Made by a program: the position numbers and the translations under genes. From Eledone cirrhosa (lineage: Eukaryota), in NCBI GenBank assembly GCA_964016885.1, contig OZ024751.1, positions 4,278,001 to 4,342,000 on the forward strand: 64,000 nt of DNA. The letters run 5' to 3'. Positions 1 through 42,464 of the stretch are shown in pieces; positions within the stretch are counted from its first letter, which is position 1; every line of letters starts with the position of its first letter. The notes beneath the pieces were generated by a model. The model searched no databases. It was not told the DNA's origin and was given only the letters and a program-made list of their open reading frames with translations.

Positions 1-123
1 GCACGTATCAGTTTAGCGGCGCTAACGTCGCTTTGTTCGTTTGTAAACAAACTGAACAGCCTGAATTTATGCCATACGGTGTTAAGGCAACCACGTCACC
101 TTTTTGTTCAACACTGACACAGG

Positions 124-168
124 AACGATGTACTAGTTTCAAGCTTGTTAGCTATCATCAGCACCGTT
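124..168 (-). ncRNA. Minimal type I hammerhead ribozyme, first of about 40 copies (one per satellite unit)
   Basis: Minus strand reads AACGGTG CTGATGA T-AGCT-AACA-AGCT-T GAAAC TA GTA CATCGTT. Stem I AACGGUG/CAUCGUU (7 bp, one G-U), core CUGAUGA and GAAA, palindromic stem III ACUAGU, GUA triplet. Predicted cut between 131 and 130. Confidence 0.85.
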
Positions 169-241
169 TACCCATCTGCCAGATAGTTGAACGTTCGAAA
201 GTATATACTTTCCTTATGAAAATTAACGGCTGAGCAGCCTA

Positions 242-249
242 ATTTGCAT
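242..249 (-). promoter_or_regulatory. Octamer motif ATGCAAAT, one per satellite unit
   Basis: Exact ATTTGCAT on + strand, ~75 nt upstream of the hammerhead on the ribozyme strand. Function is inferred only. Confidence 0.4.
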
Positions 250-2278
250 ATTGAGTGAGTTAAATCGGTCAGGCATACCGAAAACGATAAATTGAAACAA
301 AATGAAAACGAAATTTCATTTCTCACTCTTAGTATGGCACTTACTTAAATGTAAGTATGCATGTATACGTACATACATATATGTATACAGACGTACAGTA
401 GCATGCACATATATATATATATATGTATACACATATATATACATATGCATACAGGTACACATACATATATGCACGTATCAGTTTAGCGGCGCTAACGTCG
501 CTTTGTTCGTTTGTAAACAAACTGAACAGCCTGAATTTATGCCATACGGTGTTAAGGCAACCACGTCACCTTTTTGTTCAACACTGACACAGGAACGATG
601 TACTAGTTTCAAGCTTGTTAGCTATCATCAGCACCGTTTACCCATCTGCCAGATAGTTGAACGTTCGAAAGTATATACTTTCCTTATGAAAATTAACGGC
701 TGAGCAGCCTAATTTGCATATTGAGTGAGTTAAATCGGTCAGGCATACCGAAAACGATAAATTGAAACAAAATGAAAACGAAATTTCATTTCTCACTCTT
801 AGTATGGCACTTACTTAAATGTAAGTATGCATGTATACGTACATACATATATGTATACAGACGTACAGTAGCATGCACATATATATATATATACACATAT
901 ATATACATATGCATACAGGTACACATACATATATGCACGTATCAGTTTAGCGGCGCTAACGTCGCTTTGTTCGTTTGTAAACAAACTGAACAGCCTGAAT
1001 TTATGCCATACGGTGTTAAGGCAACCACGTCACCTTTTTGTTCAACACTGACACAGGAACGATGTACTAGTTTCAAGCTTGTTAGCTATCATCAGCACCG
1101 TTTACCCATCTGCCAGATAGTTGAACGTTCGAAAGTATATACTTTCCTTATGAAAATTAACGGCTGAGCAGCCTAATTTGCATATTGATTGAGTTAAATC
1201 GGTCAGGCATACCGAAAACGATAAATTGAAACAAAATGAAAACGAAATTTCATTTCTCACTCTTAGTATGGCACTTACTTAAATGTAAGTATGCATGTAT
1301 ACGTACATACATATATGTATACAGACGTACAGTAGCATGCACATATATATATATATATATATACACATATATATACATATGCATACAGGTACACATACAT
1401 ATATGCACGTATCAGTTTAGCGGCGCTAACGTCGCTTTGTTCGTTTGTAAACAAACTGAACAGCCTGAATTTATGCCATACGGTTTTAAGGCAACCACGT
1501 CACCTTTTTGTTCAACACTGACACAGGAACGATGTACTAGTTTCAAGCTTGTTAGCTATCATCAGCACCGTTTACCCATCTGCCAGATAGTTGAACGTTC
1601 GAAAGTATATACTTTCCTTATGAAAATTAACGGCTGAGCAGCCTAATTTGCATATTGAGTGAGTTAAATCGGTCAGGCATACCGAAAACGATAAATTGAA
1701 ACAAAATGAAAACGAAATTTCATTTCTCACTCTTAGTATGGCACTTACTTAAATGTAAGTATGCATGTATACGTACATACATATATGTATACAGACGTAC
1801 AGTAGCATGCACATATATATATATATATATATACACATATATATACATATGCATACAGGTACACATACATATATGCACGTATCAGTTTAGCGGCGCTAAC
1901 GTCGCTTTGTTCGTTTGTAAACAAACTGAACAGCCTGAATTTATGCCATACGGTGTTAAGGCAACCACGTCACCTTTTTGTTCAACACTGACACAGGAAC
2001 GATGTACTAGTTTCAAGCTTGTTAGCTATCATCAGCACCGTTTACCCATCTGCCAGATAGTTGAACGTTCGAAAGTATATACTTTCCTTATGAAAATTAA
2101 CGGCTGAGCAGCCTAATTTGCATATTGAGTGAGTTAAATCGGTCAGGCATACCGAAAACGATAAAATGAAACAAAATGAAAACGAAATTTCATTTCTCAC
2201 TCTTAGTATGGCACTTACTTAAATGTAAGTATGCATGTATACGTACATACATATATGTATACAGACGTACAGTAGCAT

Positions 2279-2317
<39 letters not shown>

Positions 2318-5300
2318 TATACATATGCATACAGGTACACATACATATATGCACGTATCAGTTTAGCGGCGCTAACGTCGCTTTGTTCGTTTGTAAACAA
2401 ACTGAACAGCCTGAATTTATGCCATACGGTGTTAAGGCAACCACGTCACCTTTTTGTTCAACACTGACACAGGAACGATGTACTAGTTTCAAGCTTGTTA
2501 GCTATCATCAGCACCGTTTACCCATCTGCCAGATAGTTGAACGTTCGAAAGTATATACTTTCCTTATGAAAATTAACGGCTGAGCAGCCTAATTTGCATA
2601 TTGAGTGAGTTAAATCGGTCAGGCATACCGAAAACGATAAATTGAAACAAAATGAAAACGAAATTTCATTTCTCACTCTTAGTATGGCACTTACTTAAAT
2701 GTAAGTATGCATGTATACGTACATACGTATATGTATACAGACGTACAGTAGCATGCACATATATATATATATATATATACACATATATATACATATGCAT
2801 ACAGGTACACATACATATATGCACGTATCAGTTTAGCGGCGCTAACGTCGCTTTGTTCGTTTGTAAACAAACTGAACAGCCTGAATTTATGCCATACGGT
2901 GTTAAGGCAACCACGTCACCTTTTTGTTCAACACTGACACAGGAACGATGTACTAGTTTCAAGCTTGTTAGCTATCATCAGCACCGTTTACCCATCTGCC
3001 AGATAGTTGAACGTTCGAAAGTATATACTTTCCTTATGAAAATTAACGGCTGAGCAGCCTAATTTGCATATTGAGTGAGTTAAATCGGTCAGGCATACCG
3101 AAAACGATAAATTGAAACAAAATGAAAACGAAATTTCATTTCTCACTCTTAGTATGGCACTTACTTAAATGTAAGTATGCATGTATACGTACATACATAT
3201 ATGTATACAGACGTACAGTAGCATGCACATATATATATATATATGTATACACATATATATACATATGCATACAGGTACACATACATATATGCACGTATCA
3301 GTTTAGCGGCGCTAACGTCGCTTTGTTCGTTTGTAAACAAACTGAACAGCCTGAATTTATGCCATACGGTGTTAAGGCAACCACGTCACCTTTTTGTTCA
3401 ACACTGACACAGGAACGATGTACTAGTTTCAAGTTTGTTAGCTATCATCAGCACCGTTTACCCATCTGCCAGATAGTTGAACGTTCGAAAGTATATACTT
3501 TCCTTATGAAAATTAACGGCTGAGCAGCCTAATTTGCATATTGAGTGAGTTAAATCGGTCAGGCATACCGAAAACGATAAATTGAAACAAAATGAAAACG
3601 AAATTTCATTTCTCACTCTTAGTATGGCACTTACTTAAATGTAAGTATGCATGTATACGTACATACATATATGTATACAGACGTACAGTAGCATGCACAT
3701 ATATATATATATACACATATATATACATATGCATACAGGTACACATACATATATGCACGTATCAGTTTAGCGGCGCTAACGTCGCTTTGTTCGTTTGTAA
3801 ACAAACTGAACAGCCTGAATTTATGCCATACGGTGTTAAGGCAACCACGTCACCTTTTTGTTCAACACTGACACAGGAACGATGTACTAGTTTCAAGCTT
3901 GTTAGCTATCATCAGCACCGTTTACCCATCTGCCAGATAGTTGAACGTTCGAAAGTATATACTTTCCTTATGAAAATTAACGGCTGAGCAGCCTAATTTG
4001 CATATTGATTGAGTTAAATCGGTCAGGCATACCGAAAACGATAAATTGAAACAAAATGAAAACGAAATTTCATTTCTCACTCTTAGTATGGCACTTACTT
4101 AAATGTAAGTATGCATGTATACGTACATACATATATGTATACAGACGTACAGTAGCATGCACATATATATATATATATATATACACATATATATACATAT
4201 GCATACAGGTACACATACATATATGCACGTATCAGTTTAGCGGCGCTAACGTCGCTTTGTTCGTTTGTAAACAAACTGAACAGCCTGAATTTATGCCATA
4301 CGGTGTTAAGGCAACCACGTCACCTTTTTGTTCAACACTGACACAGGAACGATGTACTAGTTTCAAGCTTGTTAGCTATCATCAGCACCGTTTACCCATC
4401 TGCCAGATAGTTGAACGTTCGAAAGTATATACTTTCCTTATGAAAATTAACGGCTGAGCAGCCTAATTTGCATATTGAGTGAGTTAAATCGGTCAGGCAT
4501 ACCGAAAACGATAAATTGAAACAAAATGAAAACGAAATTTCATTTCTCACTCTTAGTATGGCACTTACTTAAATGTAAGTATGCATGTATACGTACATAC
4601 ATATATGTATACAGACGTACAGTAGCATGCACATATATATATATATATGTATACACATATATATACATATGCATACAGGTACACATACATATATGCACGT
4701 ATCAGTTTAGCGGCGCTAACGTCGCTTTGTTCGTTTGTAAACAAACTGAACAGCCTGAATTTATGCCATACGGTGTTAAGGCAACCACGTCACCTTTTTG
4801 TTCAACACTGACACAGGAACGATGTACTAGTTTCAAGCTTGTTAGCTATCATCAGCACCGTTTACCCATCTGCCAGATAGTTGAACGTTCGAAAGTATAT
4901 ACTTTCCTTATGAAAATTAACGGCTGAGCAGCCTAATTTGCATATTGAGTGAGTTAAATCGGTCAGGCATACCGAAAACGATAAATTGAAACAAAATGAA
5001 AACGAAATTTCATTTCTCACTCTTAGTATGGCACTTACTTAAATGTAAGTATGCATGTATACGTACATACATATATGTATACAGACGTACAGTAGCATGC
5101 ACATATATATATATATATATATACACATATATATACATATGCATACAGGTACACATACATATATGCACGTATCAGTTTAGCGGCGCTAACGTCGCTTTGT
5201 TCGTTTGTAAACAAACTGAACAGCCTGAATTTATGCCATACGGTGTTAAGGCAACCACGTCACCTTTTTGTTCAACACTGACACAGGAACGATGTACTAG

Positions 5301-8300
5301 TTTCAAGCTTGTTAGCTATCATCAGCACCGTTTACCCATCTGCCAGATAGTTGAACGTTCGAAAGTATATACTTTCCTTATGAAAATTAACGGCTGAGCA
5401 GCCTAATTTGCATATTGAGTGAGTTAAATCGGTCAGGCATACCGAAAACGATAAATTGAAACAAAATGAAAACGAAATTTCATTTCTCACTCTTAGTATG
5501 GCACTTACTTAAATGTAAGTATGCATGTATACGTACATACATATATGTATACAGACGTACAGTAGCATGCACATATATATATATATATGTATACACATAT
5601 ATATACATATGCATACAGGTACACATACATATATGCACGTATCAGTTTAGCGGCGCTAACGTCGCTTTGTTCGTTTGTAAACAAACTGAACAGCCTGAAT
5701 TTATGCCATACGGTGTTAAGGCAACCACGTCACCTTTTTGTTCAACACTGACACAGGAACGATGTACTAGTTTCAAGCTTGTTAGCTATCATCAGCACCG
5801 TTTACCCATCTGCCAGATAGTTGAACGTTCGAAAGTATATACTTTCCTTATGAAAATTAACGGCTGAGCAGCCTAATTTGCATATTGAGTGAGTTAAATC
5901 GGTCAGGCATACCGAAAACGATAAATTGAAACAAAATGAAAACGAAATTTCATTTCTCACTCTTAGTATGGCACTTACTTAAATGTAAGTATGCATGTAT
6001 ACGTACATACATATATGTATACAGACGTACAGTAGCATGCACATATATATATATATACACATATATATACATATGCATACAGGTACACATACATATATGC
6101 ACGTATCAGTTTAGCGGCGCTAACGTCGCTTTGTTCGTTTGTAAACAAACTGAACAGCCTGAATTTATGCCATACGGTGTTAAGGCAACCACGTCACCTT
6201 TTTGTTCAACACTGACACAGGAACGATGTACTAGTTTCAAGCTTGTTAGCTATCATCAGCACCGTTTACCCATCTGCCAGATAGTTGAACGTTCGAAAGT
6301 ATATACTTTCCTTATGAAAATTAACGGCTGAGCAGCCTAATTTGCATATTGATTGAGTTAAATCGGTCAGGCATACCGAAAACGATAAATTGAAACAAAA
6401 TGAAAACGAAATTTCATTTCTCACTCTTAGTATGGCACTTACTTAAATGTAAGTATGCATGTATACGTACATACATATATGTATACAGACGTACAGTAGC
6501 ATGCACATATATATATATATATATATACACATATATATACATATGCATACAGGTACACATACATATATGCACGTATCAGTTTAGCGGCGCTAACGTCGCT
6601 TTGTTCGTTTGTAAACAAACTGAACAGCCTGAATTTATGCCATACGGTTTTAAGGCAACCACGTCACCTTTTTGTTCAACACTGACACAGGAACGATGTA
6701 CTAGTTTCAAGCTTGTTAGCTATCATCAGCACCGTTTACCCATCTGCCAGATAGTTGAACGTTCGAAAGTATATACTTTCCTTATGAAAATTAACGGCTG
6801 AGCAGCCTAATTTGCATATTGAGTGAGTTAAATCGGTCAGGCATACCGAAAACGATAAATTGAAACAAAATGAAAACGAAATTTCATTTCTCACTCTTAG
6901 TATGGCACTTACTTAAATGTAAGTATGCATGTATACGTACATACATATATGTATACAGACGTACAGTAGCATGCACATATATATATATATACACATATAT
7001 ATACATATGCATACAGGTACACATACATATATGCACGTATCAGTTTAGCGGCGCTAACGTCGCTTTGTTCGTTTGTAAACAAACTGAACAGCCTGAATTT
7101 ATGCCATACGGTGTTAAGGCAACCACGTCACCTTTTTGTTCAACACTGACACAGGAACGATGTACTAGTTTCAAGCTTGTTAGCTATCATCAGCACCGTT
7201 TACCCATCTGCCAGATAGTTGAACGTTCGAAAGTATATACTTTCCTTATGAAAATTAACGGCTGAGCAGCCTAATTTGCATATTGAGTGAGTTAAATCGG
7301 TCAGGCATACCGAAAACGATAAATTGAAACAAAATGAAAACGAAATTTCATTTCTCACTCTTAGTATGGCACTTACTTAAATGTAAGTATGCATGTATAC
7401 GTACATACATATATGTATACAGACGTACAGTAGCATGCACATATATATATATATATATATACACATATATATACATATGCATACAGGTACACATACATAT
7501 ATGCACGTATCAGTTTAGCGGCGCTAACGTCGCTTTGTTCGTTTGTAAACAAACTGAACAGCCTGAATTTATGCCATACGGTGTTAAGGCAACCACGTCA
7601 CCTTTTTGTTCAACACTGACACAGGAACGATGTACTAGTTTCAAGCTTGTTAGCTATCATCAGCACCGTTTACCCATCTGCCAGATAGTTGAACGTTCGA
7701 AAGTATATACTTTCCTTATGAAAATTAACGGCTGAGCAGCCTAATTTGCATATTGAGTGAGTTAAATCGGTCAGGCATACCGAAAACGATAAATTGAAAC
7801 AAAATGAAAACGAAATTTCATTTCTCACTCTTAGTATGGCACTTACTTAAATGTAAGTATGCATGTATACGTACATACATATATGTATACAGACGTACAG
7901 TAGCATGCACATATATATATATATATGTATACACATATATATACATATGCATACAGGTACACATACATATATGCACGTATCAGTTTAGCGGCGCTAACGT
8001 CGCTTTGTTCGTTTGTAAACAAACTGAACAGCCTGAATTTATGCCATACGGTGTTAAGGCAACCACGTCACCTTTTTGTTCAACACTGACACAGGAACGA
8101 TGTACTAGTTTCAAGCTTGTTAGCTATCATCAGCACCGTTTACCCATCTGCCAGATAGTTGAACGTTCGAAAGTATATACTTTCCTTATGAAAATTAACG
8201 GCTGAGCAGCCTAATTTGCATATTGAGTGAGTTAAATCGGTCAGGCATACCGAAAACGATAAATTGAAACAAAATGAAAACGAAATTTCATTTCTCACTC

Positions 8301-8844
8301 TTAGTATGGCACTTACTTAAATGTAAGTATGCATGTATACGTACATACATATATGTATACAGACGTACAGTAGCATGCACATATATATATATATACACAT
8401 ATATATACATATGCATACAGGTACACATACATATATGCACGTATCAGTTTAGCGGCGCTAACGTCGCTTTGTTCGTTTGTAAACAAACTGAACAGCCTGA
8501 ATTTATGCCATACGGTGTTAAGGCAACCACGTCACCTTTTTGTTCAACACTGACACAGGAACGATGTACTAGTTTCAAGCTTGTTAGCTATCATCAGCAC
8601 CGTTTACCCATCTGCCAGATAGTTGAACGTTCGAAAGTATATACTTTCCTTATGAAAATTAACGGCTGAGCAGCCTAATTTGCATATTGAGTGAGTTAAA
8701 TCGGTCAGGCATACCGAAAATGATAAATTGAAACAAAATGAAAACGAAATTTCATTTCTCACTCTTAGTATGGCACTTACTTAAATGTAAGTATGCATGT
8801 ATACGTACATACATATATGTATACAGACGTACAGTAGCATGCAC

Positions 8845-8875
<31 letters not shown>

Positions 8876-9316
8876 TATACATATGCATACAGGTACACAT
8901 ACATATATGCACGTATCAGTTTAGCGGCGCTAACGTCGCTTTGTTCGTTTGTAAACAAACTGAACAGCCTGAATTTATGCCATACGGTGTTAAGGCAACC
9001 ACGCCACCTTTTTGTTCAACACTGACACAGGAACGATGTACTAGTTTCAAGCTTGTTAGCTATCATCAGCACCGTTTACCCATCTGCCAGATAGTTGAAC
9101 GTTCGAAAGTATATACTTTCCTTATGAAAATTAACGGCTGAGCAGCCTAATTTGCATATTGAGTGAGTTAAATCGGTCAGGCATACCGAAAACGATAAAT
9201 TGAAACAAAATGAAAACGAAATTTCATTTCTCACTCTTAGTATGGCACTTACTTAAATGTAAGTATGCATGTATACGTACATACATATATGTATACAGAC
9301 GTACAGTAGCATGCAC

Positions 9317-9349
<33 letters not shown>

Positions 9350-12300
9350 TATACATATGCATACAGGTACACATACATATATGCACGTATCAGTTTAGCG
9401 GCGCTAACGTCGCTTTGTTCGTTTGTAAACAAACTGAACAGCCTGAATTTATGCCATACGGTGTTAAGGCAACCACGTCACCTTTTTGTTCAACACTGAC
9501 ACAGGAACGATGTACTAGTTTCAAGCTTGTTAGCTATCATCAGCACCGTTTACCCATCTGCCAGATAGTTGAACGTTCGAAAGTATATACTTTCCTTATG
9601 AAAATTAACGGCTGAGCAGCCTAATTTGCATATTGAGTGAGTTAAATCGGTCAGGCATACCGAAAACGATAAATTGAAACAAAATGAAAACGAAATTTCA
9701 TTTCTCACTCTTAGTATGGCACTTACTTAAATGTAAGTATGCATGTATACGTACATACATATATGTATACAGACGTACAGTAGCATGCACATATATATAT
9801 ATATATGTATACACATATATATACATATGCATACAGGTACACATACATATATGCACGTATCAGTTTAGCGGCGCTAACGTCGCTTTGTTCGTTTGTAAAC
9901 AAACTGAACAGCCTGAATTTATGCCATACGGTGTTAAGGCAACCACGTCACCTTTTTGTTCAACACTGACACAGGAACGATGTACTAGTTTCAAGCTTGT
10001 TAGCTATCATCAGCACCGTTTACCCATCTGCCAGATAGTTGAACGTTCGAAAGTATATACTTTCCTTATGAAAATTAACGGCTGAGCAGCCTAATTTGCA
10101 TATTGAGTGAGTTAAATCGGTCAGGCATACCGAAAACGATAAATTGAAACAAAATGAAAACGAAATTTCATTTCTCACTCTTAGTATGGCACTTACTTAA
10201 ATGTAAGTATGCATGTATACGTACATACATATATGTATACAGACGTACAGTAGCATGCACATATATATATATATACACATATATATACATATGCATACAG
10301 GTACACATACATATATGCACGTATCAGTTTAGCGGCGCTAACGTCGCTTTGTTCGTTTGTAAACAAACTGAACAGCCTGAATTTATGCCATACGGTGTTA
10401 AGGCAACCACGTCACCTTTTTGTTCAACACTGACACAGGAACGATGTACTAGTTTCAAGCTTGTTAGCTATCATCAGCACCGTTTACCCATCTGCCAGAT
10501 AGTTGAACGTTCGAAAGTATATACTTTCCTTATGAAAATTAACGGCTGAGCAGCCTAATTTGCATATTGAGTGAGTTAAATCGGTCAGGCATACCGAAAA
10601 CGATAAATTGAAACAAAATGAAAACGAAATTTCATTTCTCACTCTTAGTATGGCACTTACTTAAATGTAAGTATGCATGTATACGTACATACATATATGT
10701 ATACAGACGTACAGTAGCATGCACATATATATATATATATGTATACACATATATATACATATGCATACAGGTACACATACATATATGCACGTATCAGTTT
10801 AGCGGCGCTAACGTCGCTTTGTTCGTTTGTAAACAAACTGAACAGCCTGAATTTATGCCATACGGTGTTAAGGCAACCACGTCACCTTTTTGTTCAACAC
10901 TGACACAGGAACGATGTACTAGTTTCAAGCTTGTTAGCTATCATCAGCACCGTTTACCCATCTGCCAGATAGTTGAACGTTCGAAAGTATATACTTTCCT
11001 TATGAAAATTAACGGCTGAGCAGCCTAATTTGCATATTGAGTGAGTTAAATCGGTCAGGCATACCGAAAACGATAAATTGAAACAAAATGAAAACGAAAT
11101 TTCATTTCTCACTCTTAGTATGGCACTTACTTAAATGTAAGTATGCATGTATACGTACATACATATATGTATACAGACGTACAGTAGCATGCACATATAT
11201 ATATATATATGTATACACATATATATACATATGCATACAGGTACACATACATATATGCACGTATCAGTTTAGCGGCGCTAACGTCGCTTTGTTCGTTTGT
11301 AAACAAACTGAACAGCCTGAATTTATGCCATACGGTGTTAAGGCAACCACGTCACCTTTTTGTTCAACACTGACACAGGAACGATGTACTAGTTTCAAGC
11401 TTGTTAGCTATCATCAGCACCGTTTACCCATCTGCCAGATAGTTGAACGTTCGAAAGTATATACTTTCCTTATGAAAATTAACGGCTGAGCAGCCTAATT
11501 TGCATATTGAGTGAGTTAAATCGGTCAGGCATACCGAAAACGATAAATTGAAACAAAATGAAAACGAAATTTCATTTCTCACTCTTAGTATGGCACTTAC
11601 TTAAATGTAAGTATGCATGTATACGTACATACATATATGTATACAGACGTACAGTAGCATGCACATATATATATATATATATATACACATATATATACAT
11701 ATGCATACAGGTACACATACATATATGCACGTATCAGTTTAGCGGCGCTAACGTCGCTTTGTTCGTTTGTAAACAAACTGAACAGCCTGAATTTATGCCA
11801 TACGGTGTTAAGGCAACCACGTCACCTTTTTGTTCAACACTGACACAGGAACGATGTACTAGTTTCAAGCTTGTTAGCTATCATCAGCACCGTTTACCCA
11901 TCTGCCAGATAGTTGAACGTTCGAAAGTATATACTTTCCTTATGAAAATTAACGGCTGAGCAGCCTAATTTGCATATTGAGTGAGTTAAATCGGTCAGGC
12001 ATACCGAAAACGATAAATTGAAACAAAATGAAAACGAAATTTCATTTCTCACTCTTAGTATGGCACTTACTTAAATGTAAGTATGCATGTATACGTACAT
12101 ACACATATGTATACAGACGTACAGTAGCATGCACATATATATATATATACACATATATATACATATGCATACAGGTACACATACATATATGCACGTATCA
12201 GTTTAGCGGCGCTAACGTCGCTTTGTTCGTTTGTAAACAAACTGAACAGCCTGAATTTATGCCATACGGTGTTAAGGCAACCACGTCACCTTTTTGTTCA

Positions 12301-14472
12301 ACACTGACACAGGAACGATGTACTAGTTTCAAGCTTGTTAGCTATCATCAGCACCGTTTACCCATCTGCCAGATATTTGAACGTTCGAAAGTATATACTT
12401 TCCTTATGAAAATTAACGGCTGAGCAGCCTAATTTGCATATTGAGTGAGTTAAATCGGTCAGGCATACCGAAAACGATAAATTGAAACAAAATGAAAACG
12501 AAATTTCATTTCTCACTCTTAGTATGGCACTTACTTAAATGTAAGTATGCATGTATACGTACATACATATATGTATACAGACGTACAGTAGCATGCACAT
12601 ATATATATATATATATATACACATATATATACATATGCATACAGGTACACATACATATATGCACGTATCAGTTTAGCGGCGCTAACGTCGCTTTGTTCGT
12701 TTGTAAACAAACTGAACAGCCTGAATTTATGCCATACGGTGTTAAGGCAACCACGTCACCTTTTTGTTCAACACTGACACAGGAACGATGTACTAGTTTC
12801 AAGCTTGTTAGCTATCATCAGCACCGTTTACCCATCTGCCAGATAGTTGAACGTTCGAAAGTATATACTTTCCTTATGAAAATTAACGGCTGAGCAGCCT
12901 AATTTGCATATTGAGTGAGTTAAATCGGTCAGGCATACCGAAAACGATAAATTGAAACAAAATGAAAACGAAATTTCATTTCTCACTCTTAGTATGGCAC
13001 TTACTTAAATGTAAGTATGCATGTATACGTACATACATATATGTATACAGACGTACAGTAGCATGCACATATATATATATATATGTATACACATATATAT
13101 ACATATGCATACAGGTACACATACATATATGCACGTATCAGTTTAGCGGCGCTAACGTCGCTTTGTTCGTTTGTAAACAAACTGAACAGCCTGAATTTAT
13201 GCCATACGGTGTTAAGGCAACCACGTCACCTTTTTGTTCAACACTGACACAGGAACGATGTACTAGTTTCAAGCTTGTTAGCTATCATCAGCACCGTTTA
13301 CCCATCTGCCAGATAGTTGAACGTTCGAAAGTATATACTTTCCTTATGAAAATTAACGGCTGAGCAGCCTAATTTGCATATTGAGTGAGTTAAATCGGTC
13401 AGGCATACCGAAAACGATAAATTGAAACAAAATGAAAACGAAATTTCATTTCTCACTCTTAGTATGGCACTTACTTAAATATAAGTATGCATGTATACGT
13501 ACATACATATATGTATACAGACGTACAGTAGCATGCACATATATATATATATACACATATATATACATATGCATACAGGTACACATACATATATGCACGT
13601 ATCAGTTTAGCGGCGCTAACGTCGCTTTGTTCGTTTGTAAACAAACTGAACAGCCTGAATTTATGCCATACGGTGTTAAGGCAACCACGTCACCTTTTTG
13701 TTCAACACTGACACAGGAACGATGTACTAGTTTCAAGCTTGTTAGCTATCATCAGCACCGTTTACCCATCTGCCAGATAGTTGAACGTTCGAAAGTATAT
13801 ACTTTCCTTATGAAAATTAACGGCTGAGCAGCCTAATTTGCATATTGAGTGAGTTAAATCGGTCAGGCATACCGAAAATGATAAATTGAAACAAAATGAA
13901 AACGAAATTTCATTTCTCACTCTTAGTATGGCACTTACTTAAATGTAAGTATGCATGTATACGTACATACATATATGTATACAGACGTACAGTAGCATGC
14001 ACATATATATATATATATATATACACATATATATACATATGCATACAGGTACACATACATATATGCACGTATCAGTTTAGCGGCGCTAACGTCGCTTTGT
14101 TCGTTTGTAAACAAACTGAACAGCCTGAATTTATGCCATACGGTGTTAAGGCAACCACGTCACCTTTTTGTTCAACACTGACACAGGAACGATGTACTAG
14201 TTTCAAGCTTGTTAGCTATCATCAGCACCGTTTACCCATCTGCCAGATAGTTGAACGTTCGAAAGTATATACTTTCCTTATGAAAATTAACGGCTGAGCA
14301 GCCTAATTTGCATATTGAGTGAGTTAAATCGGTCAGGCATACCGAAAACGATAAATTGAAACAAAATGAAAACGAAATTTCATTTCTCACTCTTAGTATG
14401 GCACTTACTTAAATGTAAGTATGCATGTATACGTACATACATATATGTATACAGACGTACAGTAGCATGCAC

Positions 14473-14503
<31 letters not shown>

Positions 14504-14941
14504 TATACATATGCATACAGGTACACATACATATATGCACGTATCAGTTTAGCGGCGCTAACGTCGCTTTGTTCGTTTGTAAACAAACTGAACAGCCTGA
14601 ATTTATGCCATACGGTGTTAAGGCAACCACGTCACCTTTTTGTTCAACACTGACACAGGAACGATGTACTAGTTTCAAGCTTGTTAGCTATCATCAGCAC
14701 CGTTTACCCATCTGCCAGATAGTTGAACGTTCGAAAGTATATACTTTCCTTATGAAAATTAACGGCTGAGCAGCCTAATTTGCATATTGAGTGAGTTAAA
14801 TCGGTCAGGCATACCGAAAACGATAAATTGAAACAAAATGAAAACGAAATTTCATTTCTCACTCTTAGTATGGCACTTACTTAAATGTAAGTATGCATGT
14901 ATACGTACATACATATATGTATACAGACGTACAGTAGCATG

Positions 14942-14981
<40 letters not shown>

Positions 14982-26997: not shown

Positions 26998-28762
26998 GGC
27001 CATACCAAAAGATTGGTGCAGTAGCATCATTGTCAACTGCTACAAAGGTAAAGGCGATGCACTAGATAGAGGAAACTATAGAGGTATAAAGTTGATGGAC
27101 CAGGTCATGAAAGTAACAGAAAGAGTTATAGCACAGCTGATTAGGGACCGGGTGAATATAGACGAGATGCAATTTGGGTTTGTACCAGGGAAAGGCACCA
27201 CTGATGCGCTCTTCCTTGTGAGGCAATTACAGGAAAAGTACCTAGCTAAAAGTAAGCCACTCTACTTGGCATTTGTCGACCTTGAGAAAGCCTTTGACAG
27301 AGTTCCACGTGCAGTAATCTGGTGGGCTCTTAGAAAACTAGGAGTAGATGAATGGCTTGTGAAAGCGGTACAAGCCATGTATAGGGGAGCAGTCAGCAAA
27401 GTTAGGATTGGCAATGAGTATAGCGAGGAATTTAGCGTACAGGTTGGGGTCCACCAGGGCTCTGTTCTTAGCCCTCTCCTGTTCATCATAGTCCTGCAGG
27501 CAATAACGGAGGAGTTTAAGACCGGATGCCCATGGGAACTCCTGTATGCTGATGACCTCGCACTCATAGCTGAATCTATGGTAGAACTAGAGAATAAATT
27601 CCAAACCTGGAAGCAGGGACTAGAGAGAAAGGGCCTCAAAGTCAACATGACAAAGACTAAGGTCCTTATAAGTAGACGAGAAAACAGAACCCAGATCCCC
27701 TCAGGGAAATGGCCTTGCTCAGTATGTAGGAAAGGTGTAGGTAGGAACTCCATTCTTTGCCCCAAATGCAAACAATGGGTACACAAGAGATGTAGCGGGA
27801 TCTCAGGAAGCTTAATTAAGAATGTAGGATTCACATGCAGCAGCTGTGCTGAAACAGCAAGCAAACAGCCACAGGAAACAAGTACCACCAATCTCTGGGA
27901 GGGCCCTGTAGAAACAGTAGACAGCTTCTGCTACCTAGGTGACCGAATTAGCAACGGAGGTGGGTGCTCAGAAAGTACAATAAGTAGGGTAAGAACGGGA
28001 TGGAAGAAGTTTAGGGAACTACTACCACTGCTAGCTGCAAAAGGCTTCTCCCTCAGAATGAAAGGCAGACTGTATGATGCGTGTATCCGAACAGCGATGT
28101 TGCATGGTAGTGAGACCTGGGCGCTGAAGGTGGAAGACTTACGTAGATTAGAGAGAAACGAAGCCTGCATGCTCCGATGGATGTGTAACATACGTGAACG
28201 ACAAAGCATAAATGAATTGAGAGAGAGACTGAGCATAAGAGCATAAGAGGAATCAAATGCTGCGTGCAGGAGAGGCGGTTACGCTGGTATGGACATGTGA
28301 TGCGTATGAAGGATGACAGGATGACAGACCCAAGATGACTTGGGATGAGGTGATAAAAGCCGACCTTACCCAACTACACCTCTCAAAGTCAATGACACAC
28401 GACCGTGACTTCTGGCGTCACGCAGTAATACAGGGTACCCGACCTCCCATGGGTACATGCTGAAGCATATAAACAATATGCCCCCCCCCCCACCGCAAGG
28501 TGGTCGTGGAGGTGCCACGGCAAAAAAGCACCCGGCCCACACTGTAAAGTGGACGTGTAGGCGCCACGAAAAAGCACCCAGCACTCACTGTAAATGAGGT
28601 TGGTGTTAGGAAGGGCATCCAGCTGTAGAAATCAAGCCAGATCAGTTCCTGTATGAGCAAGGCATGGTCAGCCGACCAGACACTGCCCACAACAGGACAA
28701 CCCGTCTAACCCATGCTAGCGTGGAAGAACGGACGTAAAACGGTGATGATGATGATGATGAT
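26998..28762 (+). mobile_element. Second copy of the same RTE LINE family, more 5'-truncated, with indels
   Basis: ORF 26960..28246 is nearly identical to the RT part of 20869..23538. It has an 8-bp duplication/frameshift near 28235, an internal deletion near 28325, and the same 3' UTR and (ATG)n tail. Confidence 0.93.
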
Positions 28763-30789: not shown

Positions 30790-31324
30790 ATAAGGATTAG
30801 AATACTGGAGCATGTTTGAGTCAAACACCCTCTTCGTATTATAGAAATGACAGTAAAAGGTATAGCTCAATGCAGTTAAACAGAGCCAACAAATTAAGAG
30901 AGTAAAACAAAGAATCCTTTAATACATCAAAAGTTTTTATTAGCCGACAATGTTTCGTCCTATTAAGGACTCATCAGGGCAATCAAAACAACAATAGGTA
31001 ATATCGGCAGATTTAAGCCAGAAACTCTGAAGAATATGGAGTGTACATACACTAATGTCTTATCAAAATATATGATAATAAAAATGAAAATAAAGATAAA
31101 AATAATAAAAATATATAATAAGAATAACTAAGGATGTAGATAACATTAAGAACCATATTACAATTATAGTCCAAAGCAACCAACCTAAATCTAAACAAAT
31201 TTGGTTATATAGAGCAGGAATTATATATAACACAATATAATACATTATAATAATAATATACTTTTACCAACATTAAAATTCCAAATTAAAAATCAAAAGG
31301 TACAATATATACATGTATATATGT

Positions 31325-31364
<40 letters not shown>

Positions 31365-31800
31365 CTATATAACAACACACATCTATATTCGACTACACAA
31401 AAATTAGAAGTTTGAATATTAAAAATAAGCATGATAAGAGTGAAAATAATACTAATACATCTACCCAATATACATGAGGCAATAATATGATATAATTACA
31501 AGAAACACATATAACAAATAATAAACAACAAAATTATATAATTCAATATAATATAATAAAATAGATAATCCCCGGTTAATTTACAGAAACAATATAGATG
31601 TCACAATAAAATACAATGATAAAACGTTAACAGTGTATTAACATGTACCATAAACAATATATACAGATTGATTCATACTGGGTTACAGAGTAAATGAGGA
31701 AAAATAAATTATATAATACTCAAAAAAAGTATTATATAATTTATATTTCAAAAAAAGTATTATATAATTTATATTTCCTCATTTATTCTGTAACCCGTAA
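30790..31800 (-). mobile_element. AT-rich hammerhead-bearing repeat (fragment B), Penelope pLTR-like; diverged second copy ~40436-41680
   Basis: Two alignable copies, each starting at a (TA)n tract and carrying the same hammerhead. Confidence 0.6.
30943..30980 (-). ncRNA. Canonical-core type I hammerhead ribozyme
   Basis: GCC CTGATGA GTCCT TAAT AGGAC GAAAC ATT GTC GGC, with stem I extendable (ttttgatt/aataaaa). Confidence 0.9.
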
Positions 31801-31808
31801 CCCAGTAT

Positions 31809-34754
31809 TGTGACGGCTATGACGGAATCCATGGAGGCTATGGGTTCGGTACTAGAAATGAGGAAGGCTCCAGAATCCTGGAATTCTGCGACGCAAATAA
31901 CTTAACTATCTGTAACACTAACTTCAAAAAACGAGACAATCACTTGATCACCTATAGATCGGGGGAACACACAAGCCAGGTAGATTATATCCTTACCAGA
32001 AGACGTGACAGAGTGTCTGTTGTTAACACTAAATCCCTCCCCCATGAAGAATTCACCTCCCAACATAGACTGATAATTAGCGACATCATAGTCAGGACGA
32101 GACGTACTAGACAGCGGAAGAGGACTATCCTCAGGAGAAAAATATGGAAGCTAAAGGACCCCATAGCCAGAAATAAATTTCAAAGCATATTACTTGACGC
32201 TTTCGACAGTAAGGAAGAGCAATTAGAGTCGTATAATATAGAGGAACAGTGGGAATTCCTGAGAGCAAACCTGCTGACGGCGGCAGACGAAGTCTGTGGC
32301 TGGAGCAGGCCTGTAGGTAGGAGGAGAGTAACATGGTGGTGGAACAGTAAGGTGGAGGAGTCAATTAAGGCCAAAAAGCAGGCTTGGAAAGCATGGCGGG
32401 ATGGGGGAAGTAGAGAAGACTATCAGGTAGCCAGGAGGGAAGCTAGGAGACAAGTGTACTTCGCAAGAAGGGAAGCAGAGGAAAGAAAGTTCAAGCATGT
32501 TCTACAACGTGAGGTGTTCAGGATTGCCAGGCAATGTGTCAAGGAAAACCGTGATATTGTCGGGGAGAAGTGTGTGCTTAACGATGATGGCATACTTGCC
32601 ATCACCGACGCTGATAAGAAGGTAGCTTGGAAGTGTCACTACGAAAGGCTTCTAAATGAGGAGAACAAATGGGAGAAAGACAGTCTCCCCCACATCGACC
32701 CAATAGAGGTGTTAGTCCAGCAGTGTTAGTCCAGGGTAGTACAATAAGCAAGGCAATCAAAGATATGAAGACGGGTAAGGCGGCTGGTCCTTCGGAAATA
32801 GTTGCTGAGATGCTGAAGGCCTCTGGTTCGGTGGGACACACCATGGTCACCCGGATAGTTAACCAAGTCGTACAGAATGGGGTTGTTCCGAAGGACTGGC
32901 GTAGCAGCATCATCGTTAACTGCTATAAGGGAAAAGGAGATGCCCTAGATAGGAGTAACTATAGAGGCATTAAATTAATCGACCAGGTCATGAAGGTCAC
33001 GGAAAAAGTAATAGCGCAACTAATCAGAGAGAGAATTGACCTAGATGAAATGCAGTTCGGGTTTGTGTCAGGCAAAAGTACCACAGACGCTCTTTTCATA
33101 GTACGACAACTACAGGAGAAGTTCCTAGCTAAAGGTAAACCCCTCTACTTAGCTTTTGTCGACTTGGAGAAAGCCTTCGACAGAGTCCCCCGCTCCATTA
33201 TCTGGTGGGCTCTTAGAAAACTAGGCATTGACGAATGGCTTGTGAGGGCTATACAAGCCATGTATAAAGAAACAGTCAGCAAGGTTAGAATTAACAACGA
33301 ATATAGTGAAGAGTTTAGCGTAAAAGTTGGCGTCCATCAGGGCTCTGTTCTCAGCCCCCTACTATTTATTATTGCCCTTCAGGCTATAACAGAGGAGTTC
33401 AAGACAGGCTGCCCATGGGAACTCCTATACGCAGACGACCTGACACTCATAGCGGAATCAATGGCCGAGCTAGAGAAGAAATTCCAAACATGGAAGCACG
33501 GCCTAGAGTCATAAGGACTTAAAATTAACCTGGCTAAGACCAAAGTTCTAGTTTGTAGAAAAGGAAACAAGGCGGCGGTCCCTTCTGGGAAATGGCCATG
33601 CTCGGTGTGTAGGAAAGGCGTAGGTAGAAACTCCATTTTATGTCCTAAATGCAAAGTATGGGTGCATAAAAGATGTAGTGGGATCACAGGTAAGCTAACT
33701 AAGAACATAGATTTTACATGTGGCCGGTGTTCTGGTGCAATAAGTAGCAGCAAGTGCCCACAAAATACTAGCTCTTTCAATTGCGCAGAGGGTTCTATAG
33801 AAATAGTGGACAGCTTCCGTTACCTGGGCGATAAAATCAGCAGTGGGGGAGGGTGCTCTGAAAGTACTGTAGCTAGAGTCAGAACTGGTTGGAAAAAGTT
33901 CAGAGAGCTTATACCACTATTAGCTGCTAAAGGGTTCTCCCTAAAAATGAAAGGCAGGTTGTACGATGCCTGCATACGAACAGCAATGTTGCATGGCAGT
34001 GATACCTGGGCATTGTGTGCAGAGGATATACGCAGACTAGAGAGGAACGAAGCTTGCATGCTCCGCTGGATGTGTAACAGTAATATACGTGAACGGCAAA
34101 GCATAAATGAACTAAGGAAAAAATTAGAGATAAGAGGGATCAGATGTTGTTTACTCGAGAGAAGGCTACGTTGGTATGGACACGTGATGCGCATGAAAGT
34201 CGATAGCTGTATAACAAAGTGCAGAGGGCAATAAAGATAGACGGTAGCCACGGAATAGGCAGACCTAGAAAAACCTGGGACGAGCTGATAAACTCCGACC
34301 TCACACACTTACACCTCTCCAAGACAATGTCACTGGACCGAGACCTTTGGCGGTACTCAGTAACAGAGAAGACCCGCCTTGCCAGTAGGCATCTCTAACA
34401 AAATACACCCCGTCCCGCCACCACCCCCACCCCATCCACAACACGCCGTTCTATGTAAAGTTATGTTGGTGCCGCGCCATCCAGGCCGAAACAAATGAGA
34501 TCGTGTAGGTGTCACGACAAAAAAACACACAGTCCACGCTGTAATGTGGCCGTGTAGGCAACACGGTAAAAACCTCCCAGACCCACACTGTAAATGTGGT
34601 TGGTGTTAGGAAGGGCATCCAACTGTAGAAAACCTGCCAGACAGTCCTATGCGAGCAAGACAATCACTCTTGCCTCAAGTGGGACTACCCCCGTCCAAAC
34701 CCATGCAAGCGTGGAACACGGACGTTAAACGTTGATGATGATGATGATGATGAT
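31809..34754 (+). mobile_element. Second RTE-clade LINE family, 5'-truncated, disrupted (frameshift ~32715, stop ~33512); 3' tail copy at ~42085-42332
   Basis: ORFs 31944..32729, 32669..33514 and 33605..34234 are colinear homologues of the 889-aa RTE ORF; (ATG)n tail. Confidence 0.92.
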
Positions 34755-40586: not shown

Positions 40587-40624
40587 GCCGACAATGTTTC
40601 GTCCTATTAAGGACTCATCAGGGC
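40587..40624 (-). ncRNA. Hammerhead ribozyme, copy of 30943-30980
   Basis: + strand gccgacaatgtttcgtcctattaaggactcatcagggc, identical to the 30.9-kb copy. Confidence 0.9.
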
Positions 40625-42080: not shown

Positions 42081-42406
42081 ATATGTGTCACGACAAAAAA
42101 CACACAGTCCACGCTGTAAATGTGGCCGTGTAGGCAACACGGTAAAAACCTCCCAGCCCCACACTGTAAATGTGGTTGGTGTTAGGAAGGGCATCCAGCT
42201 GTAGAAAACCCGCCAGACAGTCCTATGCGAGCAAGACAACCACTCTTGCCTCAAGTGGGAAAACCCCCGTCCAAACCCATGCAAGCGTGGAACACGGACG
42301 CTAAACCTGATGATGATGATGATGATGATGATATGTATATATATATATGTATATAATAATGAAATGACAGGAGGCTGGATTTGTGTAAATCCTTGAAAGG
42401 TTTATT

Positions 42407-42464
42407 ATACTATGATCATTTCAATGACCGGGTTCCGTATGAATCCGGTGATATCATCAGGTAT
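42407..42464 (-). ncRNA. Type I hammerhead ribozyme (left arm copy)
   Basis: Reverse complement of 44986-45043. Confidence 0.75.

What the first reader, a model, noticed from the sequence alone, without database searches (positions are those of the whole stretch)
131..155. Satellite hammerhead is built to work as a dimer, with a non-canonical U-U at the base of stem II
Seen: stem III is only AC-UA-GU, a palindrome (ACUAGU) whose 2-nt loop can hardly close within one copy, and positions 10.1/11.1 are U/U instead of G-C. Established: minimal Penelope-associated hammerheads and the newt ribozyme cleave as double hammerheads by pairing palindromic stem III between two copies. Inference: adjacent units in one transcript supply each other's partner, so tandem organisation would be functionally required. 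The same U-U occurs in the unrelated 44986-45043 ribozyme.
Basis: partly seen in the sequence, partly recalled or inferred. Interest (0 to 1): 0.72.

Follow-up and report, generated by a model that had tools for sequence, protein, structure and literature searches.

The report
Retrozyme hammerhead, likely paired cleavage
This is a copy of a known kind of self-cutting RNA motif in a very numerous jumping repeat; it likely cuts best when two copies pair, and its odd U·U mismatch is already in print and is replaced by ordinary pairs in sister repeats that spread just as well, so the finding is mostly ordinary.

Summary
Bases 131-161 (minus strand) form a type I hammerhead with U10.1·U11.1 and a palindromic helix III (ACUAGU). 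It sits once per 470-bp unit of a non-LTR retrozyme with 24,587 near-identical cores in this genome.

Pairing of two copies is likely. Across sister lineages the two central helix III bases change together (UA to GC). They are adjacent, so they can pair only between copies.

"Tandem required" is not shown. This is a canonical extended hammerhead, not the minimal Penelope type, and newt hammerheads of that build are reported to cut as monomers too. Folding energies do not decide it. 33 of 55 insertions carry one ribozyme per strand. The 88-copy arm is one Penelope-type insertion, later expanded locally.

U·U is neither new nor tied to pairing. It is published for axolotl HHR_Amex2. A homologous sister family with the same palindrome has G-C (9,325 copies), and a 99%-identical pair of families differs U·U versus A-U.

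No cleavage or expression was tested. This scan has already noted this family and the Penelope ends on other DNA.

The parts
131..161 (-). Hammerhead core of the first copy: C3-A9 (161-155), U10.1 (154), stem II and loop (153-142), U11.1 (141), G12-A14 (140-138), helix III (137-132), A17 (131); predicted cut between 131 and 130
   Evidence: sequence; covariation
132..137 (-). Palindromic helix III ACUAGU, predicted to form a 6-bp duplex between two copies
124..169 (-). Stem I (167-162 with 130-125) and U1.7 (124), invariant in 10 of 10 related cores
106..192 (-). Internally looped extension of helix I enclosing the ribozyme (arms 175-192 and 106-119)
   Evidence: fold of 100-200, z = -2.7, 3 of 200 shuffles as good
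131..600 (-). One 470-nt unit from cut site to cut site, 36% GC, the predicted monomer or circle
287..349 (-). About 59-62-nt 'tail' between the two fixed 3' ends of insertions (unit nt about 252-255 and 314)
1..18738 (-). Main arm of the array: 40 ribozymes in the window, 88 in all; it continues 22.8 kb upstream of the window and ends at unit nt 314 in (TA)n
18738..20037 (+). Inverted arm, 3 ribozymes, ending at unit nt about 255 in (TA)n
44986..45043 (+). Second U·U hammerhead (family B; 2.3-2.4-kb non-coding unit; helix III AUGAUCAU)
42407..42464 (-).

Best explanation
This is a canonical type I hammerhead motif, present once per unit of a non-coding 470-bp repeat of the non-LTR retrozyme kind, and it likely cuts mainly as a double hammerhead in multimeric transcripts, with U·U as a tolerated, likely weakening variant that pairing does not need. 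Inferred mechanism: two consecutive ribozymes swap their stem I partners and pair their ACUAGU palindromes into a 6-bp helix III, a nested fold whose inner stem I is the same pairing the monomer or circle would have. A lone copy has at best a one-pair helix III and is predicted to rest with its CUG core paired to the UAG of the palindrome, so it would cut slowly but not necessarily never. Cut monomers would be ligated to circles. A Penelope-type enzyme likely copies uncut multimers or circles from two fixed start sites into (TA)n, giving back-to-back tandem arms; long arrays then grow locally. The tandem layout is therefore likely a product of copying and does not prove that pairing in cis is required.
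For: Shown: motif and covariation of stems I and II across three lineages. Central helix III bases covary UA/GC although adjacent. 60 of 91 hammerheads in 600 kb of evenly spaced genome stretches have a perfectly palindromic helix III; the reversed control gave 1 hit. Computed: the double fold beats two single active folds by 4.4-11.1 kcal/mol in 6 of 6 units; the core is predicted paired (P about 0.9) in the 4 ACUAGU units. U·U is dispensable for spread: G-C sister 9,325 copies, homologous to this unit outside the ribozyme at 67-78% over stretches; the 310-bp family has about 15,200 U·U and 3,944 A-U copies at 99% identity. Insertion ends: 22 of 55 insertions have one end at 255 and the other at 314; 43 ends at 314 and 31 at 255, mostly in TA-rich flanks (36 of 43, 27 of 31). 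The predicted 314 end of this array was found upstream. Papers: PMC7229834 (U·U axolotl ribozyme, dimers much more efficient); PMC11167929 (tail = two reverse-transcription start sites).
Against: No cleavage, transcript or circle was observed. For this unit the double fold costs +15.5 kcal/mol against +9.9 for one single active fold, so it wins only if each formed core adds more than 5.6 kcal/mol that the model ignores; the result depends on construct ends. Within this family no amplified compensatory change of the palindrome appears in the first 100 of 427 C15.2 variants, so the covariation rests on few lineages. One 6-nt lineage (AGAACU) is not palindromic. Within the clan U·U is kept: 176 copies differ at 10.1 and 153 at 11.1 against 24,587, which would also fit selection. 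Eight of nine Xenopus retrozyme dimers showed no cleavage in vitro (bioRxiv 10.64898/2026.07.22.740005, section 15). The partner Penelope element was not identified.
Confidence: 0.62

Rival explanations
1. The extended hammerhead cuts well as a monomer: a one-pair helix III with a CUAG tetraloop is held by loop II-helix I tertiary contacts, and pairing is only an extra mode.
For: Extended, internally looped helix I; invariant U1.7 and loop II frame UAAnnA in 10 of 10 cores; newt and salamander motifs can cut as monomers given such extensions (PMC6155905, passage); one single active fold is cheaper than the double fold for this unit; the double fold needs a long stem I to swap strands, while the local stem forms first (inference).
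Against: It does not explain why adjacent loop bases stay complementary across lineages. PMC7229834 reports only 6% cleavage in 1 h for the axolotl monomer with a one-pair helix III.
Confidence: 0.2
2. The motif rarely cuts on its own. It needs a protein, or serves mainly as a structure on the RNA that the Penelope-type enzyme copies.
For: Genomic copies run through the cut site: of 30 loci examined among 72 copies lacking A17, 28 are point variants, 1 is a one-base insertion and 1 is a junction at the site (read by eye). The anole Penelope hammerhead needs protein and is dispensable for insertion in vitro (PMC11167929).
Against: Read-through copies are equally expected from re-ligated circles. 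Core and stems are conserved with compensatory changes, and units are precise monomer repeats.
Confidence: 0.1
3. A mismatch at 10.1·11.1 is positively selected as a brake that keeps the monomeric circle closed, and it arose repeatedly for that reason.
For: U·U occurs in at least 8 lineages by eye and in axolotl. 10 of the first 100 listed 10.1 variants are a C·A double change, another mismatch, and none is G-C.
Against: G-C and A-U sisters multiplied to thousands of copies. In the evenly spaced sample A-U (32) and G-C (18) outnumber U·U (16, of which 13 are this clan) among 91 hits. AT-biased mutation may favour U·U (inference).
Confidence: 0.08

Closest known systems
Metazoan non-LTR retrozymes, especially axolotl HHR_Amex1/HHR_Amex2 (Cervera and de la Peña 2020, PMC7229834; parts 2-4 of 6 read, supplement not readable)
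   Same: Tandem non-coding units below 50% GC with one type I hammerhead each. Amex1 has a one-pair helix III with a palindromic tetraloop; Amex2 has a U·U mismatch at the base of helix II; dimers cut much better than monomers.
   Different: This ribozyme combines the weak Amex1-type helix III with the Amex2-type U·U. The unit (470 bp) is slightly above their 150-450 bp range. No RNA evidence here.
Newt satellite 2 hammerhead (known only through passages of PMC6155905, PMC7229834 and PMC4209133; the original papers were not held)
   Same: Satellite-like array, palindromic weak helix III, double-hammerhead mode, extended helix I.
   Different: Newt motifs also cut as monomers through the extended helix I, which weakens 'dimer required'. 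Their 10.1-11.1 pair was not checked here.
Minimal hammerheads of Penelope-like elements (Cervera and de la Peña 2014, PMC4209133; parts 1-2 of 4 read; Lünse et al. 2017 not held)
   Same: Type I topology, palindromic 15.2-16.2 and loop 3, proposed dimer cleavage.
   Different: Those have a short helix I, a long helix II, an extra base between 9 and 10.1 and a conserved G10.1-C11.1; this motif has none of these.
Penelope-like element insertions and non-autonomous derivatives (PMC11167929 parts 1-2 of 4; PMC8557442 passages; bioRxiv 10.64898/2026.07.22.740005 abstract, section 11 part 1, sections 15 and 16)
   Same: Partial tandems, an inverted 5' arm, two fixed ends a 'tail' apart, (TA)n targets; retrozymes proposed to be non-autonomous Penelope derivatives.
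   Different: The tail is about 59-62 nt (about 143 nt in family B) against 30-40 bp described. No coding partner was identified.

Membership tests
Type I hammerhead ribozyme | Core CUGANGA...GAAA...UH with three helices, helix I open | tested here: met
   94.4% of cells paired, 12 of 16 pairs with two-sided changes
Type I hammerhead ribozyme | G10.1-C11.1 pair typical of canonical hammerheads (PMC4209133) | tested here: not met
   U·U; a published exception exists in axolotl HHR_Amex2, so this is typical, not defining
Type I hammerhead ribozyme | Match to an Rfam hammerhead model at gathering score | tested here: not met
   0 matches in the whole window, including the G-C motifs at 30943 and 40587, so the models miss these motifs generally
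Type I hammerhead ribozyme | Self-cleavage 3' of H17 | not testable with these tools
   needs in vitro assay or raw RNA reads of this organism
Canonical (extended) metazoan type I hammerhead | Helix I 6 bp with looped extension, helix II 4 positions, helix III 1-2 bp with palindromic loop | tested here: met
   against the description in PMC4209133
Canonical (extended) metazoan type I hammerhead | Loop 1-loop 2 tertiary contacts | tested here: inconclusive
   U1.7 and the loop II frame are invariant in 10 of 10 cores; the contacts themselves were not modelled; U1.7 role from passages of PMC11875169
Minimal Penelope hammerhead (min-HHR) | Short helix I, 7-8-bp helix II, extra base between 9 and 10.1, G10.1-C11.1 | tested here: not met
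   an extra-base register gives a worse stem II by inspection
Non-LTR retrozyme | Tandem unit of a few hundred bp, one type I hammerhead per unit, GC below 50% | tested here: met
   470 bp, 36% GC; within the 51-972 bp range of the 2026 preprint
Non-LTR retrozyme | Non-coding, dispersed in many copies | tested here: met
   24,587 cores; longest ATG frame 133 aa, antisense and absent from sister units
Non-LTR retrozyme | Expressed as monomeric linear and circular RNA | not testable with these tools
   no RNA holder listed
Non-LTR retrozyme | Target-site duplications longer than 4 bp | tested here: inconclusive
   flanks are (TA)n, so a duplication cannot be told
Penelope-type insertion | Two fixed 3' ends (tail), inverted 5' arm, AT-rich target | tested here: met
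   family B ends at 58-63 (19 hits) and 204-206 (19 hits)
Penelope-type insertion | Homology to the terminal repeat of an autonomous Penelope element | not tested

The most novel reading that the evidence does not exclude
The palindrome is a two-state switch. In a multimer it pairs with the next copy and the RNA is cut; in the monomeric circle it folds back onto the ribozyme's own CUG core and keeps the circle closed, so it can serve as a Penelope template. That would answer the open point of how animal retrozyme circles avoid re-cutting. The genome's natural U·U, A-U, G-C and C·A sisters give a ready-made series for testing it.
Probability: 0.25. Interest if true: 0.6.

Novelty: new member of a known kind. 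Interest (0 to 1): 0.27.

Why it matters
Each element of the finding is in print: double hammerheads with a palindromic helix III, and U·U at the base of helix II. What this genome adds is natural controls. Sister retrozymes differ at 10.1·11.1 with the palindrome held constant, and lineages differ in the palindrome with U·U held constant. The second comparison is sequence evidence for pairing between copies. The first shows that U·U is not needed for spread. The fixed insertion ends support Penelope-driven copying of retrozymes, but this scan has reported that repeatedly on other DNA and a 2026 preprint argues the Penelope link.

Tried and rejected
DNA similarity search of the own genome returned nothing because very common words are skipped; exact patterns were used instead. 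Rfam gave 0 matches. Expression: no RNA holder listed; the one raw RNA run laid 0 reads, which is no test; six contig runs of unrecorded kind hold the unit and its subfamily variants but say nothing on expression. Idea that U·U goes with A17 or with A10.2-U11.2: rejected, since U·U lineages have A, U or C at 17 and other 10.2 pairs. Idea that U10.1 is an extra unpaired base above an A-U pair: rejected by inspection, the register breaks stem II. Idea that two different RNAs paired in trans are copied together: not supported; arms of one insertion differ by a median 1 of 125 bases against 7 between insertions, and the own arm is the best or tied match in 16 of 19. 5' ends piling up at the cut site: not seen, 1 of 30 (the script labelled 9 as 'other', and 7 of these are intact older-subfamily cores by eye; truncations preceded by A are not captured). 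The 88-copy arm as pure rolling-circle product: not fully, shared variants recur at spacings of 11, 14 and 3 units, which points to later local duplication. Pfam did not recognise the Penelope-like frame at 52167-53168. Papers not held: Lünse 2017, Epstein 1991, Pabón-Peña 1991, Cremisi 1992, Garrett 1996. Searches for a cephalopod retrozyme paper, for 10.1/11.1 mismatches, for retrozyme tails and for the newt promoter listed nothing on this family; listings only. The unread Lünse paper and the PMC7229834 supplement may hold further U·U variants.

Full report
1. What is there. The finding's coordinates lie on the minus strand of a 470-bp repeat (40.0 copies at 98% match over 1-18739). Reading 161 down to 131 gives CUGAUGA, U, AGC-UAACAA-GCU, U, GAA, ACUAGU, A. 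So 10.1·11.1 is U·U, helix III is the palindrome ACUAGU, and the predicted cut falls between 131 and 130. Stem I has 6 pairs, then an internal loop opposite U1.7 and a long distal extension (fold of 100-200: -28.9 kcal/mol, z = -2.7). The motif at 44986-45043 also has U·U, with helix III AUGAUCAU, and has an inverted twin at 42407-42464. Two G-C hammerheads of a third family lie at 30943-30980 and 40587-40624. Rfam matched none of them.

2. The 'satellite' is a mobile element. The exact 31-nt core occurs 10,718 times in the 3.0-Gb genome (control 0), and 24,587 times when positions 7 and the fourth loop base may vary. I examined 55 insertions from the first listed hits on one contig plus this array; the sample is biased to intact cores. 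33 have at most one ribozyme per strand, 12 have two, and 10 have three or more. Their 3' ends are fixed: 43 at unit nt 314 and 31 at about 255, mostly in TA-rich flanks; 22 of 55 have one of each, back to back. From this I predicted that the window's minus arm ends at 314 upstream. It does, 22.8 kb before the window, in (TA)n, with the 3-copy inverted arm ending at 255. The array is young (33 differences in 36,312 unique bases) and shows block duplications at spacings of 11, 14 and 3 units, so it grew locally after insertion. Family B (1,937 exact copies) is a 2.3-2.4-kb non-coding unit with the same layout and ends at 58-63 and 204. Two fixed ends a 'tail' apart, inverted 5' arms and AT-rich targets are the Penelope signature (PMC11167929; PMC8557442).

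3. Evidence on pairing between copies. Ten cores from three related lineages align without gaps. Stems I and II show two-sided changes, and so does the central pair of helix III: UA in 7 rows, GC in 3. These two bases are neighbours and cannot pair within one strand, so their covariation points to an antiparallel duplex between copies. It is one event between lineages, not many. In the wider census 4 of 5 lineages with a 6-nt helix III have a self-complementary centre (ACUAGU, ACGCGU, ACCGGU, AGUACU; exception AGAACU; p = 0.016 if independent). In 60 evenly spaced 10-kb stretches, 60 of 91 hits had a perfect palindrome (copies, not lineages; control 1 hit). Nearest-neighbour energies: duplex -4.8 kcal/mol, forced single pair +6.0. 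In a tandem transcript the double hammerhead is nested and needs stem I to swap partners. It beats two single active folds in all 6 units tested (4.4-11.1 kcal/mol). For this unit it costs +15.5 against +9.9 for one single active fold, so the model does not decide which path cuts first. The resting fold pairs the CUG core with the UAG of the palindrome (P 0.88-0.98 here; 0.82-0.92 in the three other ACUAGU units; lower in the ACGCGU units).

4. Evidence against 'tandem required'. The build is canonical and extended, not minimal (PMC4209133). A review states that newt and salamander motifs also cut as monomers when helix I has internally looped extensions matched to loop II (PMC6155905, passage); this motif has that extension and an invariant U1.7. 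The axolotl U·U ribozyme cuts 22% in 1 h as a monomer and much better as a dimer; the one with a one-pair helix III cuts 6% (PMC7229834). Pairing could also occur in trans. Most insertions are single per strand, though these may be dead ends, so this weakens the argument from layout without refuting it. Both arms of an insertion come from one template sequence, and copies run through the cut site, which fits circles or uncut multimers.

5. The U·U. It is published (axolotl HHR_Amex2). Within this clan it is stable: 176 copies differ at 10.1 (0.7%) and 153 at 11.1 (0.6%), against 427 at C15.2 (1.7%), while position 7 and the fourth loop base have several amplified states. Among the first 100 listed 10.1 variants none is G-C and 10 are C·A. 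But a 466-467-bp sister family, homologous outside the ribozyme, has G10.1-C11.1 with the same ACUAGU and 9,325 copies. A 310-bp family exists as U·U (15,272 hits, 45 in the control; first 100 all this family) and as A-U (3,944) at 99% identity. U·U appears in at least 8 lineages by eye, with A, C or U at position 17. It is recurrent and tolerated, and not coupled to the palindrome. Whether it slows cleavage is inferred from the axolotl case, not shown.

6. Mechanism, steps marked. Shown: motif, covariation, copy numbers, fixed ends, single template per insertion. Inferred: transcription of multimers; double-hammerhead cleavage by stem I swap; weak monomer activity; ligation to circles; Penelope-type reverse transcription from two internal starts. 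Confidence in the whole 0.62.

7. Comparison and verdict. It works like the axolotl and newt retrozyme hammerheads and meets every testable structural criterion of a non-LTR retrozyme; RNA expression could not be tested. It fails the minimal-Penelope-hammerhead criteria. The Penelope link is argued in a 2026 preprint. Earlier notes of this scan describe this 470-bp family, the U·U and the fixed ends on other DNA of the same genome; they are not independent support. The organism label 'cephalopod/octopus' comes from those notes and was not tested. New member of a known kind; interest 0.27.

Noticed in passing
window 42351-45875: The family B ribozyme is part of a two-armed insertion of a 2.3-2.4-kb non-coding unit: inverted arm ending at unit nt 60, plus arm running into the N gap near 45,880; 1,937 exact cores genome-wide, rarely in same-strand tandem.
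   Followed up: partly
window 242-249 (each unit): An octamer motif (ATGCAAAT on the ribozyme strand) is kept at the same place in the G-C sister family but not in the older U·U subfamily or the 310-bp family. An snRNA-type promoter as recalled for newt satellite 2 is a lead only; the papers were not held.
   Followed up: partly
window 131-165: The predicted resting fold pairs G2.3-G5 with the 3' half of the palindrome plus A17 and C1.1, masking the catalytic core, in linear and circular folds.
   Followed up: partly
G000 genome-wide: A small amplified sublineage has C10.1·A11.1 (10 of the first 100 listed variants); other families in the census also have C·A, A·A, A·C or A·G there.
   Followed up: no
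window 30943-30980 and 40587-40624 (minus): Two identical G-C hammerheads with helix III ACAUUGU, a palindrome interrupted by a central U·U in the dimer.
   Followed up: no
window 52167-53171 (+): Reading frame that looks like a Penelope-type reverse transcriptase with a C-terminal GIY-YIG start (by recalled motifs; no Pfam hit); 92-93% identical copies in L006, L012, L025.
   Followed up: partly
window 20869-23550 (-), 26936-28246 (+), 31794-34234 (+): LINE-like reverse transcriptase frames; the first has RVT_1 and a PHD finger by Pfam. The first two are near-identical and inverted.
   Followed up: no
L103-L162 (60 evenly spaced 10-kb stretches): About one hammerhead motif per 6.6 kb (91 in 600 kb, control 1), including U3-A8 core variants; this genome is unusually rich in them.
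   Followed up: partly
window 18570-18740: The 5'-most piece of the main arm carries an internal deletion of about 30 bp next to the inversion junction.
   Followed up: no
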